Source: Octopus vulgaris
Lineage: Eukaryota
DNA length: 64,000 nt
Reading direction: 5' to 3'
Assembly: GCA_951406725.2 (NCBI GenBank)
Contig: OX597831.1
Location: 79,112,001-79,176,000 of the forward strand
The notes under the pieces are model-generated. The model was not told where the DNA came from. It did not search any database and saw nothing but the letters and a program-made list of their open reading frames with translations. The translations under genes were made by a program, and so were the position numbers. The number at the start of each line of letters is the position of its first letter. Positions within the stretch are counted from its first letter, which is position 1. Shown here one piece after another: positions 5,174 to 58,280 of the stretch.

Positions 5174-6461
5174 CGAGGGGCGTTCAATAAGTAATGCCCC
5201 TGACTCACTTTCCATAACAGTAGAGCAACGAAACTTGGCACAGTTATTAGTCTTTTTCTACATAGGAACCACCCAGAGTTACGCATTCTCCCATTGTTTG
5301 ATGCAGCTCTGGAGACCGTTTTTGTAGAAGACCCCAGCTTGGTCCTCCAACCTGAACGCGACTTCAGAAATCAAGGCTGCATCATCTGGGAAACGCTTTC
5401 CTTTCAAAAACAACTTCATGACTGGGAAGAGGTGAAAATCAGAGGGTGCAAGGTCAGGAAAGTAGGGGGATGGGGGAGGAGTTCATAGCCATACGCCTGT
5501 GCTTCTGATCTGGCGACAAGCGAGTTGTGGACCGGAGCGTTGTCCTGCAGGAGGAGGATGCCTTTGCTGATCTTGCCTTGCCTCTTGATTTTGATAACTT
5601 CTCTTAATTTCCTCAAAAGTGAAGCATAATAGGCTCCTGCAATTGTGGTACCCTTTGCCAGGAAATCTGTCATCACTACTCCGTCCTGGTCCCAGAAGAC
5701 TGTGAGCATGACCTTGCCAGCGGAGGGCTGCACCCTTGCCTTCTTTGGAGGGGGTGAGTCCCGGTGCTTCCACTGCATTGACTGGGCTTTGGACTCTGGA
5801 TCATCGTGATGGACCCAGGTTTCATCCTGTGTAATCAGTCTTTTGAAAAATTTTGACTCATCTTCTTGGCACATCTCTAAATTCACCCTCGAGCACTCGA
5901 CGCGTTCTTGCTTCTGGAAAGGCGTGAGCAACCTGGGAATCCATCTGGCAGACACCTTTTGCATATGCAAATGGTCATGAATGATAGTTTCCACAGACCC
6001 GGTACTAATCTTGACCTAATGGGCTATTTGGCGAATAGTTATGCGTCGATCTTCCAAAATGGCAGCCTCAACTTGACGGACAGATGCCTCATCAATGGCA
6101 GAAGGGGCGACCAGATCTGGGAGCTGTTTCCACAGAGTTCCGACCATGTTTGAATTCACGATGCCAGCGTTTTACAAGGTCATATGATGGGGCATCATCA
6201 CCATAAGTTACTTTCATTTCATCAAAAGTCTCCCGTGGTGTGCGTCCTTTCAAATACAAAAACCGGATCACTGCTCGACACTCAACAGGCTCCATTTCAC
6301 ACTTGACTCGTTCAAACACCTGTAAATCAGAAACCACAATTAATTCAGAGCTGTAATTTGCCACTTACTCTATAGAGATATAAATGACTGCACATGCAAA
6401 ATTTCAGCTAGATCAAACAAATGCAAGTGTGTCAGAGGCATTACTTATTGAACGGCCCTCG
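5174..6461 (-). mobile_element. Full-length mariner (DD34D) transposon, 1288 bp
   Basis: 31 bp TIRs cgaggggcgttcaataagtaatgcccctgac / gtcagaggcattacttattgaacggccctcg (2 mismatches); TA target duplication at 5172-5173 and 6462-6463. Confidence 0.95.
5247..6295 (-). pseudogene. Mariner transposase, frameshifted
   Basis: HTH N-terminus MEPVECRAVIRFL..PRSGRP, WIPRLL, ITQDETWVHH, LLQDNAPVH, and frameshifted HPP-PDLAPSDF; split over at least 3 frames. Confidence 0.92.
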
Positions 6462-9159: not shown

Positions 9160-9813
9160 AACACACATTTTTGCACTTCCTGTAGGGAAGGTAAGCCTGG
9201 TATCATTTTCAAATAGGTTTCAGTACCTTTTCTTTTATCATTCCTAGAGGTCCTACAATCACTGGTACTGTAGTCGCCTTGAGACGCCACATTTTTTCAA
9301 TTTCTATTAGCAGGTCTTTATATTTACTAATCTTGTCAAATTCTTTCGCCGCTATATTGTGATAGCAAGGAAAACTCATGTCCATTAATAAACATCTTTT
9401 TTGTCTGATCTTTTATAATAATATCCGGTTTATTAGCTTTTATAGTCTTGTCGGTCTGTACGGGGAAGTCCCATAGAATCGACACATTTTCTCCCTCAGG
9501 CACGGCTTCAGGATGGTGTTTATACCATTTGTCAGCGGTTTTGATTTTATAATGCCGACATATTGTCCAATGTAAATACTGGCCGACTCTGTCATGTCTT
9601 GCTTTATATTCTGCAGGTGCTAAGACTCTACACCCTGAGATTTGATGGTCTATTGTTTCAATCTCATCGTTACAGAATCGGCATTTTGGGTCAGCTCCAT
9701 TTTTTATCACATTGGCTTGGTAGTTCCGGGTTAATAAGCTTTGGTCTTGAGCAGCTAATAGGAAATCTTCACTTTCTGCTTTTAGCCCTGAGCTTCGTAA
9801 CCATTGGTGCGTG

Positions 9814-9815
<2 letters not shown>
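9160..9815 (-). mobile_element. Second Dong/R4-type LINE fragment (CCHC zinc knuckle plus RLE)
   Basis: AAQDQSL, CRFCNDEIETIDHQISGC, RHDRVG, ILWDF, NKPDII; abuts a (TAA)n tract. Confidence 0.88.
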
Positions 9816-9893
<78 letters not shown>

Positions 9894-9897
9894 TACT

Positions 9898-10107
9898 AAG
9901 GAGGTGAGTTGGCAGAATCGTTAGCACACAGGGTGAAATGCTTTAGCGGTATTTCGTCTGGCGCTACGTTCTGAGTTCAAATTCCGCCGAGTTCGACTTT
10001 CATCCTCTTGGGCTCGATAAAATAAGTACCAGTTGAGCACTGGGGTCGATGTAATCGACTAACACCCTTCCCCAAAAATTTTCAAGGCCTCGTGCCAAGA
10101 GTAGAAA
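9898..10107 (+). mobile_element. SINE family A
   Basis: Shared head and core sequence. Confidence 0.85.
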
Positions 10108-19742: not shown

Positions 19743-19764
19743 TCTGTGTATGTATGTATGTATG

Positions 19765-19830
<66 letters not shown>

Positions 19831-20050
19831 TATATATATAATATAATATTATATTATATTTAATGTATATATATATATAATATATATTTATATATATAAT
19901 ATATATTCATATATATATATCTATATCTATATATATATATATATGTATGTATGTATGTATGTGTGTCTGTATATATATATACACATATATATACATATAT
20001 ATATACATATATATATATGTATATATGTATGTGTGTATATATATATATAT

Positions 20051-20130
<80 letters not shown>

Positions 20131-20272
20131 ATATATATATATATATATATCAACAATAAAGGAACGGCCATAATAGGCCATTCACCCACTAGAAATAACA
20201 GCCAAAGCTTCAACCGCAAATAAAAGTTAATTCAGTAAACCAGGAGAAAATTTAAAAAACATTTACCCTGTA

Positions 20273-20379
20273 ATTTCTTATACGATATACCGTTTCATCT
20301 GCTGATTAATGGTAAACTAACCTGATTAAATTAAATCAAGCCAATCTTCCACAGGCCCTCAGATTCTTCAGTAAGAAAT
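20273..20379 (-). ncRNA. Type I hammerhead ribozyme, array copy 1
   Basis: Minus strand reads AUUUCUUA-CUGAAGA-AUCUG..CAGAU-GAAA-CGGUAUAUCG-UA-UAAGAAAU. Confidence 0.85.
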
Positions 20380-20765
20380 AGCCCAAGACGGAACAGATAT
20401 TTTCACGAGGCATTTCCGACGTTGCCAAGTTTATATCTGACCTAAAATTTTCAAATCGTCGCACTCGCGCCAAATTTATCGGCAGCAAATAAATATAAGC
20501 CGTCGATTCCATTACGGAATTAACCAGAAAATTCATAATTAATCAATATAGGGTGGCAAAAAAAATTTTGTAGAATTCTTTTGCCACCAGCGGCCTAGTA
20601 GGAAAAAATTAAAATAGTCACAGACCATTTTTAAGTTCAACATCAACAATAAAGGAACGGCCATAATAGGCCATTCACCCACTAGAAATAACAGCCAAAG
20701 CTTCAACCGCAAATAAAAGTTAATTCAGTAAACCAGGAGAAAATTTAAAAAACATTTACCCTGTA

Positions 20766-20872
20766 ATTTCTTATACGATATACCGTTTCATCTGCTGATT
20801 AATGGTAAACTAACCTGATTAAATTAAATCAAGCCAATCTTCCACAGGCCCTCAGATTCTTCAGTAAGAAAT
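20766..20872 (-). ncRNA. Type I hammerhead ribozyme, array copy 2
   Basis: Same motif, +493 bp. Confidence 0.85.
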
Positions 20873-21257
20873 AGCCCAAGACGGAACAGATATTTTCACG
20901 AGGCATTTCCGACGTTGCCAAGTTTATATCTGACCTAAAATTTTCAAATCGTCGCACTCGCGCCAAATTTATCGGCAGCAAATAAATATAAGCCGTCGAT
21001 TCCATTACGGAATTAACCAGAAAATTCATAATTAATCAATATAGGGTGGCAAAAAAATTTTGTAGAATTCTTTTGCCACCAGCGGCCTAGTAGGAAAAAA
21101 ATAAAATAGTCATAGACCATTTTTAAGTTCAACATCAACAATAAAGGAACGGCCATAATAGGCCATTCACCCACTAGAAATAACAGCCAAAGCTTCAACC
21201 GCAAATAAAAGTTAATTCAGTAAACCAGGAGAAAATTTAAAAAACATTTACCCTGTA

Positions 21258-21364
21258 ATTTCTTATACGATATACCGTTTCATCTGCTGATTAATGGTAA
21301 ACTAACCTGATTAAATTAAATCAAGCCAATCTTCCACAGGCCCTCAGATTCTTCAGTAAGAAAT
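21258..21364 (-). ncRNA. Type I hammerhead ribozyme, array copy 3
   Basis: Same motif, +492 bp. Confidence 0.85.
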
Positions 21365-21749
21365 AGCCCAAGACGGAACAGATATTTTCACGAGGCATTT
21401 CCGACGTTGCCAAGTTTATATCTGACCTAAAATTTTCAAATCGTCGCACTCGCGCCAAATTTATCGGCAGCAAATAAATATAAGCCGTCGATTCCATTAC
21501 GGAATTAACCAGAAAATTCATAATTAATCAATATAGGGTGGCAAAAAAATTTTGTAGAATTCTTTTGCCACCAGCGGCCTAGTAGGAAAAAAATAAAATA
21601 GTCATAGACCATTTTTAAGTTCAACATCAACAATAAAGGAACGGCCATAATAGGCCATTCACCCACTAGAAATAACAGCCAAAGCTTCAACCGCAAATAA
21701 AAGTTAATTCAGTAAACCAGGAGAAAATTTAAAAAACATTTACCCTGTA

Positions 21750-21856
21750 ATTTCTTATACGATATACCGTTTCATCTGCTGATTAATGGTAAACTAACCT
21801 GATTAAATTAAATCAAGCCAATCTTCCACAGGCCCTCAGATTCTTCAGTAAGAAAT
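21750..21856 (-). ncRNA. Type I hammerhead ribozyme, array copy 4
   Basis: Same motif, +492 bp. Confidence 0.85.
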
Positions 21857-22112
21857 AGCCCAAGACGGAACAGATATTTTCACGAGGCATTTCCGACGTT
21901 GCCAAGTTTATATCTGACCTAAAATTTTCAAATCGTCGCACTCGCGCCAAATTTATCGGCAGCAAATAAATATAAGCCGTCGATTCCATTACGGAATTAA
22001 CCAGAAAATTCATAATTAATCAATATAGTGCGACGATTTGAAAATTTTAGGTCAGATATAAACTTGGCAACGTCGGAAATGCCTCGTGAAAATATCTGTT
22101 CCGTCTTGGGCT

Positions 22113-22219
22113 ATTTCTTACTGAAGAATCTGAGGGCCTGCGGAAGATTGGCTTTATTTAATTTAATCAGGTTAGTTTACCATTAATCAGCAGATGAAAC
22201 GGTATATCGTATAAGAAAT
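22113..22219 (+). ncRNA. Type I hammerhead ribozyme, array copy 5
   Basis: Stem I 22113-22120/22212-22219, CTGAAGA 22121-22127, stem II ATCTG/CAGAT, GAAA 22196-22199, stem III 22200-22209, predicted cut after GUA at 22211. Confidence 0.85.
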
Positions 22220-22605
22220 TACAGGGTAAATGTTTTTTAAATTTTCTCCTGGTTTACTGAATTAACTTTTATTTGCGGTTGAAGCTTTGGCTGTTATTTC
22301 TAGTGGGTGAATGGCCTATTATGGCCGTTCATTTATTGTTGATGTTGAACTTAAAAATGGTCTATGACTATTTTAATTTTTTCCTACTAGGCCGCTGGTG
22401 GCAAAAGAATTCTACAAAATTTTTTTTGCCACCCTATATTGATTAATTATGAATTTTCTGGTTAATTCCGTAATGGAATCGACGGCTTATATTTATTTGC
22501 TGCCGATAAATTTGGCGCGAGTGCGACGATTTGAAAATTTTAGGTCAGATATAAACTTGGCAACGTCGGAAATGCCTCGTGAAAATATCTGTTCCGTCTT
22601 GGGCT

Positions 22606-22712
22606 ATTTCTTACTGAAGAATCTGAGGGCCTGTGGAAGATTGGCTTGATTTAATTTAATCAGGTTAGTTTACCATTAATCAGCAGATGAAACGGTATAT
22701 CGTATAAGAAAT
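22606..22712 (+). ncRNA. Type I hammerhead ribozyme, array copy 6
   Basis: Same motif, +493 bp. Confidence 0.85.
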
Positions 22713-23098
22713 TACAGGGTAAATGTTTTTTAAATTTTCTCCTGGTTTACTGAATTAACTTTTATTTGCGGTTGAAGCTTTGGCTGTTATTTCTAGTGGG
22801 TGAATGGCCTATTATGGCCGTTCCTTTATTGTTGATGTTGAACTTAAAAATGGTCTATGACTATTTTAATTTTTTCCTACTAGGCCGCTGGTGGCAAAAG
22901 AATTCTACAAAATTTTTTTTGCCACCCTATATTGATTAATTATGAATTTTCTGGTTAATTCCGTAATGGAATCGACGGCTTATATTTATTTGCTGCCGAT
23001 AAATTTGGCGCGAGTGCGACGATTTGAAAATTTTAGGTCAGATATAAACTTGGCAACGTCGGAAATGCCTCGTGAAAATATCTGTTCCGTCTTGGGCT

Positions 23099-23205
23099 AT
23101 TTCTTACTGAAGAATCTGAGGGCCTGTGGAAGATTGGCTTGATTTAATTTAATCAGGTTAGTTTACCATTAATCAGCAGATGAAACGGTATATCGTATAA
23201 GAAAT
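23099..23205 (+). ncRNA. Type I hammerhead ribozyme, array copy 7
   Basis: Same motif, +493 bp. Confidence 0.85.
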
Positions 23206-23429
23206 TACAGGGTAAATGTTTTTAAAATTTTCTCCTGGTTTACTGAATTAACTTTTATTTGCGGTTGAAGCTTTGGCTGTTATTTCTAGTGGGTGAATGG
23301 CCTATTATGGCCGTTCCTTTATTGTTGATGTTGAACTTAAAAATGGTCTATGACTATTTTAATTTTTTCCTACTAGGCCGCTGGTGGCAAAAGAATTCTA
23401 CAAAATTTTTTTTTGCCACCCTATATTGA

Positions 23430-23466
<37 letters not shown>

Positions 23467-56235: not shown

Positions 56236-58280
56236 TGCACAGCTTCTAACGCTGGAGATGTATTACAGTGTCAGCTGTTCACTACCAGTGAACTAAGGTA
56301 ACACCTCTTATTTTTTCGAGCAACTTCCGGAGTATTCGAGCGGTTCCAAAAAGTGCTATTTCTGCAAGTGCTCCACTCTTATTGCAGCTCCTATTTATTC
56401 CACGTACTTCTCGAGATTTTTGGTCACTGTTTCCAGGGCTTCGACAATTATTGGTACTACTGCTACCGTTTTCATCGACCACAACTGCTTAACTTATCAT
56501 ATCTCTCGACTTTTCTTTCTTCCTTATTGCATACCTTTTTATCAGCTGGGCATGCTATATCTATGATCCAGCATAGTTTGTTTTCAGTCTCAATTAAAAC
56601 TATGTCTGGCTTCCTATTCTCTATCTCATGGTCACACTGAATCATAAAATCCCATAGGATATTTGCATTTCTAATTTCGACAATGCTTTCAGATGGTCGT
56701 ACCAATGTTTTGCCCTGTCAAGTCCATACTTGTTGCAAAGTGTCCAATGGACAAGCCTGGCTATATTGCCGTGGCGTCTCTCATGTTCTTTCTGGGCTAG
56801 TGGCGAATAGTGACTGGAAATATGCCATACGGTTTCACCGTTTTGTCCACAGATTCTGCACTTATCACTTTCTGATTTGTTGCCTATTCTGTATTTTATG
56901 TAGTTTGTTCTTAGTGCTTGCTCTTGGGCAGTACAGATAGGAGCCTCTGTTTCCGGTTTTAAATCTATTTTAGTCATCCACAGCCATCTTTTTTCTCTGT
57001 CTTTCTTATCTTTCAATAGCCCTATGTAATTGACCATGCATTCTTTTCTTTAACCACCTATTTTCAGTTTCATTTGTTTTCAATTTCTTGTATAGTGCTT
57101 TATCTTTGCAATCTTTCATCCTATACAAGCCTGACCTTCCTACTTCTAATAATAGCGGTTCTGTGGCATTTTTTACATACCATGCTCTGTTGTTTTCTTC
57201 TGCTCTAATGCTGTGTTCGCATCCAATAAGTGATTTCCCCCTCTTTTTCTTGGTACATATAGTCTGTCTATGTCACATTTTGGGCTGAGTGACCATATCT
57301 AGTTAGCAACTTCCTTGTCTTTCTGTCTAAGCTGTTTACCTCTGCTCCATATCTAAAGAGTGAAATTGCCCAGGCGTTGATAGCTTTGATCTGATTCCGT
57401 CCGTTTAATTTAGACTAAAGGATCAGTCTCAGGCTGCGTAAGTACTCCACCTTAAATTTTTCTGTCATTTCTTTCTCTATTAATTTATCCATTTCCAAAA
57501 TCCCCAAGTACTTATAGCTTGTCTCTTCTATCTGCTTCATAACCTCCCCCGACGGTATCGTTAGTCCGTCCATACATTTGATTTTGCCTCTCTGGAAGAC
57601 TAACACACCACACTTTCTCAGTCCGAACTCCATTCTGATATCAGCACTGAAGGTATACACTGTATCAACGAGGGAACTGACTTGGGCTTCATCTTTACCA
57701 TAAAGTTTGAGGTCATCCATGAATAACAAATGGTTGACTATTTGTTGGCGGCTTTTGAATACATACCCAGCATTTGCTTTCCTCAGAATCAAGCACAGTA
57801 CAGAGATCAATGGGGACAGGCAGTCTCCTTGGAAGATGCCCCTCCTAATTTCTACTGTCCCCAAATTTCTTCCGTATGCTGTCAGGTCCGTCCTCCAATT
57901 CGCCCTACTTTTTCTAAGCAATCGCTCAACAACCGATGCAATCCCAAACAGGTTCATACATTCCATAATCCAAGAATGTGGGATCATATTGTAAGCCTTA
58001 CGATAGTCAATCCATGACATGGCTAAGTTACTCTTCCCCCACTTGCAGTCTCTGAGTACAGTTTTTTCTATCAGGAGTTCACCAAATCTTTCGATCCGGT
58101 AGCCTTAAACTCCATCTGGTCCCGGGGCTTTCCAGTTGCTCATTTGTTTTTGCTGATTTCCATCACTTCCCTAACTGAAATGACTAGTTCTCTCTGTTTT
58201 GGACAGACTTCTGTTTGTTTCAGTTCTTGCAACCATTCAACATCCTTCTTGTGCTACTTGTCTTTGCTCCAGATGTCACT
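56236..58280 (-). mobile_element. Dong/R4-clade RLE LINE, 5'-truncated and decayed, ending in (TAA)n
   Basis: WIDYRKAY, GIFQGDCLSPL, HLLFMDDLKLY, YKYLG, AQEQAL, CRICG..ETVWHI, RRHGNI, RKPDIVL, IIDIACP; same family as 8357-8930. Confidence 0.93.

What the first reader, a model, noticed from the sequence alone, without database searches (positions are those of the whole stretch)
20149..23437. Retrozyme-like array: seven hammerhead ribozymes in near-identical 492-493 bp units inside a (TA)n tract
Seen: about 3.8 units in one orientation and about 2.9 in the other, almost identical. Each contains AUUUCUUA-CUGAAGA-AUCUG[58 nt]CAGAU-GAAA-CGGUAUAUCG-UA-UAAGAAAU, which gives a perfect 8 bp stem I, both conserved core boxes and a GUA cleavage triplet. 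Established: tandem non-coding repeats with one type I hammerhead per unit define metazoan non-LTR retrozymes and Penelope pseudo-LTRs; transcripts self-cleave to unit length, can circularise and are thought to be mobilised by Penelope RT. Inference: this is a young, possibly active cephalopod retrozyme yielding about 492 nt linear or circular RNAs. I cannot confirm from here whether the family is already described.
Basis: partly seen in the sequence, partly recalled or inferred. Interest (0 to 1): 0.92.

Follow-up and report, generated by a model that had tools for sequence, protein, structure and literature searches.

The report
Young ribozyme repeat mobilised Penelope-style
A young, non-coding jumping repeat with a self-cutting RNA motif in every 493-base unit; its insertions carry the footprint of Penelope-type retrotransposons and look like one RNA molecule copied over and over, so a long-proposed circular-RNA copying cycle can now be tested.

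Summary
Confirmed: seven type I hammerheads in 492-493 bp units, 3.8 units on the minus strand and 2.9 on the plus, inside (TA)n. The family is young and genome-wide (812 and 689 exact ribozyme-motif matches in two subfamilies). A 64%-identical sister family keeps the core with 9 of 16 stem pairs changed on both sides and none broken. The inversion is the family rule. Of 58 insertions, 48 have two outward-pointing arms; 42 of these end at unit position ~132 on one arm and ~236 on the other, none at the same site twice. This is the Penelope-like-element (PLE) 'tail' of two reverse-transcription starts; two intact young PLE families here show the same pairing. Both arms share lineage variants in 28 of 29 cases (5% when shuffled), so they copy one homogeneous template. 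Verdict: a new non-LTR retrozyme, very likely mobilised in trans by a PLE (about 0.9), probably by rolling round a monomer circle (about 0.6). Self-cleavage, circles and the helper's identity are not shown.

The parts
19749..20150 (.). Left (TA)n-rich target tract
   Evidence: TRF
20149..22028 (-). Left arm, 3.81 units; 3' end at unit position 132 (site S1, window 20149), 5' end at unit position 223. Unit position 1 = base after the ribozyme cut (window 22705).
20273..20379 (-). Type I hammerhead, cleavable base at 20281
20766..20872 (-). Type I hammerhead, cleavable base at 20774
21258..21364 (-). Type I hammerhead, cleavable base at 21266
21750..21856 (-). Type I hammerhead, cleavable base at 21758
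22027..22028 (.). Inversion junction: the two 5'-truncated ends meet with a 2-base overlap
22027..23437 (+). Right arm, 2.86 units; 5' end at unit position 309, 3' end at unit position 239 (site S2)
22113..22219 (+). Type I hammerhead, cut after 22211
22606..22712 (+). Type I hammerhead, cut after 22704; stem III is a 12-nt self-complementary stretch
22705..23197 (+). One cut-to-cut monomer, 493 nt, 35% G+C, longest stop-free frame 68 codons; predicted RNA product
22745..22975 (+). Structured region holding both 3'-end sites (z -5.45); includes a 13-bp hairpin at about 22890-22926 that is kept, with changed pairs, in the sister family; candidate RT-binding element (inferred)
23099..23205 (+). 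Type I hammerhead, cut after 23197
23330..23437 (+). 'Tail': the ~105 nt between S1 and S2, present at this end of the insertion only
23435..23466 (.). Right (TA)n target tract
   Evidence: TRF

Best explanation
A non-autonomous Penelope-like retroelement of the non-LTR retrozyme kind. (1, shown) Each 493-nt non-coding unit holds a conserved type I hammerhead. (2, inferred) Arrays are transcribed; neighbouring ribozymes fold as a double hammerhead through the palindromic stem III and cut out monomers, which a host ligase closes into circles that are poor at cutting themselves. (3, strongly inferred from insertion anatomy) An autonomous PLE protein (RT plus GIY-YIG endonuclease) acting in trans cuts both strands of a (TA)n tract and extends each DNA end on the RNA, one from site S1 (132 nt after the ribozyme cut) and the other from S2 (about 236 nt after it). 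(4, shown as pattern, inferred as mechanism) Both cDNAs copy one homogeneous template for 0.1 to 9 units, most simply by rolling round one circle, stop at scattered points and are joined 5' to 5', mostly through 0-6 bases of overlap. This rebuilds a tandem array able to make monomers again. My odds: PLE-mobilised retrozyme about 0.9; monomer circle as template about 0.6; ribozyme active mainly as a dimer about 0.65.
For: Anatomy: 48 of 58 insertions have two outward-pointing arms; 42 of 48 pair S1 with S2, 0 of 48 use the same site twice, 6 have one non-standard end; (TA)n on both sides in 48 of 58. S1 is nearly exact (47 ends at 132). 5' ends are scattered round the unit (105 ends). The sister family ends at the equivalent places, about 130 and 228. 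Autonomous PLEs in this genome do the same: a 781-aa RT + GIY-YIG family has two ends about 40 nt apart and pairs them in 2 of 2 inverted copies among 16; a 775-aa family (150 of 150 scored matches 99-100% identical) ends 137 or 169 nt after its ribozyme-like motif and pairs them in 3 of 3 inverted pairs examined. PMC11167929 (main text read) shows that the PLE tail is the stretch between two internal RT starts and that the protein extends both strands. One template: lineage variants shared by both arms in 28 of 29 cases versus 5% (max 28%) over 2000 arm shuffles; 9 variants seen in one locus only are the majority in both arms, 8 of them in every covering unit; units differ by 0.26 per 100 nt within an arm, 0.26 across arms, 0.71 between loci. 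No pile-up of 5' ends at the cut (2 of 105 within 3 nt, 1.3 expected); 203 cut-site junctions show no indel, 202 exact. Ribozyme: 9 of 16 pairs changed on both sides, 1 on one side, 0 broken between families; 2 of 19 changed on both sides between subfamilies; stem III hairpin -0.2 to 0 kcal/mol as monomer versus -13.6 to -17.5 as self-duplex.
Against: No DNA similarity to any autonomous PLE sampled: an A/B profile found only a 58-nt stray copy and one weak hit (E 0.008) in 56 PLE stretches and nothing in 32 more, 2 of them repeats, so the helper is unnamed. The tail is about 105 nt, not the 30-40 nt in print or the 32 and 40 nt of the local PLEs. In PMC11167929 uncleaved RNA was the main substrate and no reads ended at the ribozyme cut. 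In the 2026 preprint 8 of 9 predicted retrozyme dimers did not cleave. In the predicted circle the stem I pairs have probabilities of only 0.02-0.08. Ten of 112 variant rows are in some but not all units of a locus, which one clean circle does not give. 12 of 105 5' ends lie 1-30 nt after the cut (6.4 expected, p 0.03, post hoc). Junction fidelity is inflated by how loci were picked (best identity, or an exact pattern across the cut). 'Seen in one locus only' means within 58 of several hundred loci; subfamilies that follow each other in time would also make arms concordant.
Confidence: 0.78

Rival explanations
1. Same PLE machinery, but the template is an uncleaved linear multimer transcribed from a few homogeneous master arrays; circles are by-products or absent.
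For: Also gives scar-free junctions and concordant arms. Uncleaved RNA is the main substrate of the anole PLE in vitro (PMC11167929). Ten partial variant patterns could be inherited mosaics. One 2.5-unit arm stops at the cut site (L060).
Against: Every copy is 5'-truncated at a scattered point, so arrays would shrink each round, yet arms reach 9.3 units. A new mutation arises in one unit; 29 of 112 variant rows fixed in all units of a locus and 14 lineage variants need repeated passage through a monomer.
Confidence: 0.3
2. PLE RT jumps repeatedly from the 5' end of a cleaved linear monomer to a 3' end, without a covalent circle.
For: Passes through a monomer like the circle model; slight excess of 5' ends just after the cut and short rearranged pieces at some inversion junctions.
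Against: 203 junctions without an indel and no pile-up at the cut (selection-biased); units of one insertion as alike across arms as within.
Confidence: 0.07
3. A DNA-level repeat (Helitron-like or satellite spread by DNA circles) carrying a vestigial or chance hammerhead.
For: Tandem arrays, hairpins and TA targets also occur in such elements (recalled, no call).
Against: Covarying ribozyme in three lineages; two fixed 3' ends, scattered 5' ends and inverted arms as in the local PLEs.
Confidence: 0.03
4. A LINE RT mobilises it, and the inversion is L1-type twin priming on one linear RNA (mechanism recalled, no call).
For: Inversions with short overlaps at the junction; LINE-like RT fragments occur in the window.
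Against: No simple-repeat or poly(A) end of its own; twin priming would stop the S2 arm near S1, but S2 arms run up to 6.5 units and stop anywhere.
Confidence: 0.03

Closest known systems
Metazoan non-LTR retrozymes (Cervera and de la Pena 2020, PMC7229834; passages and parts 2-4 of 6 read, supplement not read)
   Same: Non-coding, low-GC tandem repeats with one type I hammerhead per unit, dispersed, no LTR; structured predicted circle (z -4.2, sister family -7.3).
   Different: Unit 493 nt versus 150-450 there; 58-nt hairpin in loop II; the paper proposes PLE mobilisation and tandem cDNA from circles only as a hypothesis; 'inverted', 'octopus' and 'cephalopod' do not occur in its main text.
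Retrozymes as non-autonomous PLE sequences (Li, Clavereau, Pollet, bioRxiv 10.64898/2026.07.22.740005; parts 1-3 of 5 read, supplements closed)
   Same: Same conclusion on origin; unit length within their 51-972 bp.
   Different: Their evidence is co-occurrence and pLTR homology in Xenopus, no mollusc sampled; here it is insertion anatomy, and no pLTR homology was found.
EN+ Penelope-like elements (Craig et al. 2021, PMC8557442 and its preprint, passages read; Frangieh et al. 2024, PMC11167929, parts 1-2 of 4 read)
   Same: Inverted 5'-truncated copy, tail on one end only, two internal RT starts downstream of a hammerhead, (TA)n targets.
   Different: No ORF; tail about 105 nt instead of 30-40; arms are multi-unit arrays of one short unit.
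Non-autonomous Chlamys PLEs such as MRC1 (PMC8557442, passage read)
   Same: Non-autonomous PLEs with multicopy head-to-tail insertions.
   Different: Those generally resemble their autonomous partners at the 3' end, and their clade lacks canonical hammerheads; this one has a hammerhead and no detected similarity to a partner.
Dimeric hammerheads of newt and axolotl repeats and of PLE pLTRs (PMC4209133 passages; PMC7229834)
   Same: Weak, palindromic helix III suited to double-hammerhead cleavage in tandem RNA.
   Different: The palindrome is longer here (12 nt), so a 4-bp monomer stem is also possible.

Membership tests
Non-LTR retrozyme | Tandem repeats with one type I hammerhead per unit | tested here: met
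   7 of 7 in the window; tandem spacing genome-wide
Non-LTR retrozyme | Non-coding, G+C below 50% | tested here: met
   35% G+C; longest stop-free frame 68 codons in a 4-unit concatemer
Non-LTR retrozyme | Ribozyme conserved with covariation | tested here: met
   9 of 16 pairs changed on both sides, 0 broken, family A v B; 2 of 19 between subfamilies. Three lineages only. No Rfam hammerhead hit.
Non-LTR retrozyme | Dispersed and mobile | tested here: met
   253 matches in 39 scored of 703 candidates, on many contigs, mostly 97-100% identical
Non-LTR retrozyme | Unit of a few hundred bases | tested here: met
   493, 488 and 468 nt: above the 150-450 of PMC7229834, inside the 51-972 of the 2026 preprint
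Non-LTR retrozyme | Self-cleavage of the transcript | not testable with these tools
   Folding only
Non-LTR retrozyme | Expressed as unit-length linear and circular RNA | tested here: inconclusive
   Only assembled contigs of runs guessed to be RNA; 3 of 3 cover the unit, but the head-to-tail joint also stands in the DNA run
Penelope-like insertion mechanism | Tail: two fixed 3' ends, the extension on one end only | tested here: met
   42 of 48 two-arm insertions S1/S2, 0 same-site; tail about 105 nt, longer than the 30-40 described
Penelope-like insertion mechanism | Inverted 5'-truncated copy joined at the 5' end | tested here: met
   48 of 58
Penelope-like insertion mechanism | (TA)n target | tested here: met
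   TA on both sides in 48 of 58; runs of at least 14 nt at 50 S1 and 45 S2 ends counted
Penelope-like insertion mechanism | Sequence similarity to an autonomous partner's pLTR | tested here: inconclusive
   None in 86 PLE stretches, some overlapping; these sample only part of 6136 GIY-YIG candidates
Autonomous PLE | RT + GIY-YIG ORF | tested here: not met
   No ORF in the unit; none of PLE type seen beside 20 position-ordered copies
LTR retrozyme (plants) | Type III hammerhead in two LTRs | tested here: not met
   Type I motif in head-to-tail units
Repbase or Dfam catalogued repeat | Match to a named consensus | not testable with these tools
   No such library on hand

The most novel reading that the evidence does not exclude
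A PLE reverse-transcriptase dimer primes the two cut strands of a (TA)n tract at two different fixed sites on one ribozyme-made circular RNA and rolls round it up to nine times. The retrozyme shares no detectable sequence with its helper and is recognised by structure, and each insertion is a lap-by-lap record of a single RNA molecule, including bases misread on some laps only. This would be direct genomic evidence that animal retrozyme circles are the transposition template.
Probability: 0.45. Interest if true: 0.85.

Novelty: new member of a known kind. Interest (0 to 1): 0.68.

Why it matters
Who copies animal retrozymes, and whether their circles are the template, is stated as open in the papers read (PMC7229834 discussion; 2026 preprint discussion), as is how PLEs form their tandem and inverted structures and tail (Craig et al. 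passages). This family offers hundreds of near-identical insertions with a strict two-site rule, a 493-nt substrate and two young intact PLE proteins as candidate helpers, so both questions can be put to one in vitro assay. The kind of element is known; the insertion-level evidence was not found in eight literature searches, which cover only open-access papers and preprints.

Tried and rejected
Rfam scan at E<=10: no hammerhead; top hits are miRNA models on the inverted junction and on (TA)n, all below gathering score. Helper search: GIY-YIG scan and two PLE protein searches gave two intact families and decayed relatives, none similar in DNA to the unit. MAFFT alignment of A and B ribozymes was out of register at stem I and one row was truncated, so no pair counts were made on it; pairs were read from the core outwards instead. 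Bacterial promoter scan: 3 sites versus 2.1 expected, and not suited to this organism. Public runs: 20 of 24 listed hold part of the unit, all as contigs; 4 of the 24 were laid and cannot show starts, ends or strand. Run X3 holds one 523-nt contig that closes on itself with no loose end listed, but tandem DNA gives the same, so it is not counted as evidence. Earlier scan findings: nothing by place, sequence or words. Assembly artefact rejected: junction points differ from locus to locus while outer ends are fixed. Target-site duplication and empty sites could not be read inside (TA)n. Rows left out: L039 (same insertion as L040, duplicated flanks), the family-B copy inside L053, pieces under 93-95% identity, 41 positions beside homopolymers, and indels. 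A larger sample of inverted pairs of the 775-aa PLE was not obtained, so that count rests on 3 pairs.

Full report
Observation. The array is as described: 3.8 units on the minus strand (20149-22028) and 2.9 on the plus strand (22027-23437), between (TA)n tracts. My type I descriptor found seven hammerheads in the whole window, all in the array, with stems of 8, 5 and 4 bp and a GUA triplet; 0 of 5000 shuffles gave one as strong. Rfam did not call them. The unit is 35% G+C and non-coding.

Family. The unit matched 253 places in 39 scored of 703 candidates, full-length matches nearly all 97-100% identical. Exact 27-letter ribozyme motifs occur 812 times (subfamily A1) and 689 times (A2; unit 488 nt, 456 of 494 columns identical to A1). 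A sister family B (468 nt, 296 of 460 aligned bases identical; 2551 first-look candidates, 127 exact motif matches) keeps the core while re-spelling the stems: of 16 comparable pairs 9 changed on both sides, 1 on one side, 6 are unchanged and none is broken; A1 versus A2 adds 2 double changes in 19 pairs. These are three lineages, not many independent events. In all three, stem III is a 12-nt self-complementary stretch, marginal as a hairpin (-0.2 to 0 kcal/mol) and stable as a duplex (-13.6 to -17.5). PMC4209133 (passages) describes this as the mark of hammerheads that cut as dimers in tandem RNA and spare monomer circles. That this holds here is inferred.

Insertion anatomy. I examined 38 best-scoring loci (window included, one duplicate dropped) and 20 further loci taken in order of position. 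Two outward-pointing arms were seen in 33 of 38 and 15 of 20. With position 1 just after the ribozyme cut, one arm ends at 130-136 (S1) and the other at 227-245 (S2) in 30 of 33 and 12 of 15; none uses the same site twice; 6 have one odd end; 10 loci have one arm, some with an S2 stub too short for BLAST. (TA)n lies on both sides in 48 of 58. Arms reach 9.3 units (median total 4.2 in the best-scoring set, 1.4 in the position-ordered set). The 105 mapped 5' ends scatter round the unit; 27 of 45 junctions show 0-6 bases of overlap, 3 longer overlaps and 15 a gap or inserted bases. Family B shows the equivalent ends (about 130 and 228) with shorter arms in 19 loci picked by a query from that region.

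Comparison with PLEs. Craig et al. (passages) describe the inverted 5'-truncated copy, a 30-40 bp tail on one end only, and (TA)n targets. Frangieh et al. show that the tail lies between two internal RT starts and that the protein cuts and extends both strands and is predicted to dimerise. In this genome a GIY-YIG scan led to a young family with a 781-aa RT + GIY-YIG frame, a cysteine motif in the linker (Neptune-like by the definition in PMC8557442; clade not tested by a tree) and an upstream ORF; of 16 copies 12 end at one site and 4 about 40 nt further, and both inverted copies pair the two. A second family (775-aa frames; 150 of 150 scored matches 99-100% identical) ends 137 or 169 nt after its ribozyme-like motif in 26 of 28 rows, some rows being the same locus, and pairs the two in 3 of 3 inverted pairs. 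Neither resembles the unit in DNA. So the repeat works like a PLE substrate; its helper is not identified.

Template. In 45 loci with both arms, lineage variants are shared by both arms 28 of 29 times, against 5% when arms are shuffled; 9 variants seen in one locus only are the majority in both arms; units differ by 0.26 per 100 nt within and across arms and by 0.71 between loci. In the first 38 loci, of 112 variant rows 29 are in all units of a locus, 73 in one unit and 10 in some. No indel was seen at 203 cut-site junctions and 5' ends do not pile up there, though locus selection favours clean junctions. A monomer circle copied in laps explains fixation, scar-free arrays and regrowth of array length. 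An uncleaved multimer from a homogeneous master array explains the concordance too and is favoured by the anole in vitro result; it explains regrowth and repeated fixation less well. The 10 partial patterns, several in non-adjacent units or in both arms, fit neither cleanly: gene conversion, mosaic donors or misreading of a modified base on some laps are the candidates (inference).

Expression. Only contigs were available. Three runs guessed to be RNA cover the unit, and the head-to-tail joint appears in these and in the DNA run alike. This shows neither cleavage nor circles.

Novelty and verdict. Non-LTR retrozymes and their proposed PLE origin are in print (PMC7229834; bioRxiv 10.64898/2026.07.22.740005), as are non-autonomous PLEs with head-to-tail copies (PMC8557442). 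Eight searches listed no paper on a cephalopod retrozyme or on PLE tails in a retrozyme, judged from listings and the texts named above; subscription journals, supplements, Dfam and Repbase were not covered. The scan's earlier notes hold nothing on it. The host is probably an octopus (recall, from genome size and microsatellite load; not tested). Verdict: a real, young retrozyme, a new member of a known kind, whose insertions give unusually direct evidence for PLE mobilisation and make the circle-template question testable. Interest 0.68.

Noticed in passing
L109-L124 (e.g. L122:789-6010): Young autonomous PLE family: 781-aa RT + GIY-YIG frame preceded by an overlapping ORF of up to 479 codons in another frame; (TA)n target, ~40-nt tail; by eye a variant hammerhead in the pLTR with U3-A8 in place of C3-G8.
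   Followed up: partly
L125, L185-L199: Second, very young PLE family (775-aa frames, 150 of 150 scored matches 99-100% identical), often in inverted pairs, 32-nt tail, and by eye a minimal hammerhead with C at core position 4. Its first end lies 137 nt after the cut, close to the repeat's 132.
   Followed up: partly
L073:1477-1945 and L069-L088: Sister retrozyme family B, 468 nt, copies about 94-98% identical, same two ends, shorter arms.
   Followed up: yes
L083 (-, near 1982), L096 (+, near 39), L097 (two, inverted), L117 (-, near 2139): Further type I hammerhead candidates with long loop II and palindromic or near-palindromic stem III, unrelated to A and B by the profile search: probably more retrozyme or PLE families.
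   Followed up: no
L043, L055, L059, L065, L068: Locus-restricted variants in several non-adjacent units, some in both arms; unexplained.
   Followed up: partly
window 22460-22952, run X5: Ten A>G differences in a run guessed to be RNA, four of them absent from the DNA run laid beside it. Inverted arms would form long double-stranded RNA, so A-to-I editing is possible, but there is no DNA from the same individual.
   Followed up: no
L039 and L040: The same insertion with the same flanks twice, about 63 kb apart on contig C11: segmental duplication or assembly duplicate.
   Followed up: no
L032, L033: 31-33 nt pieces from unit positions 56-88 at the inversion junction, suggesting template switching during joining.
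   Followed up: no
window 5419-6015 (-): Transposase fragment, Pfam Transposase_1, E 5e-24.
   Followed up: partly
window 57418-58104 (-), 9339-9920 (-): Reverse-transcriptase fragments: RVT_1 E 1e-13; zf-RVT E 0.002, below cut-off.
   Followed up: partly
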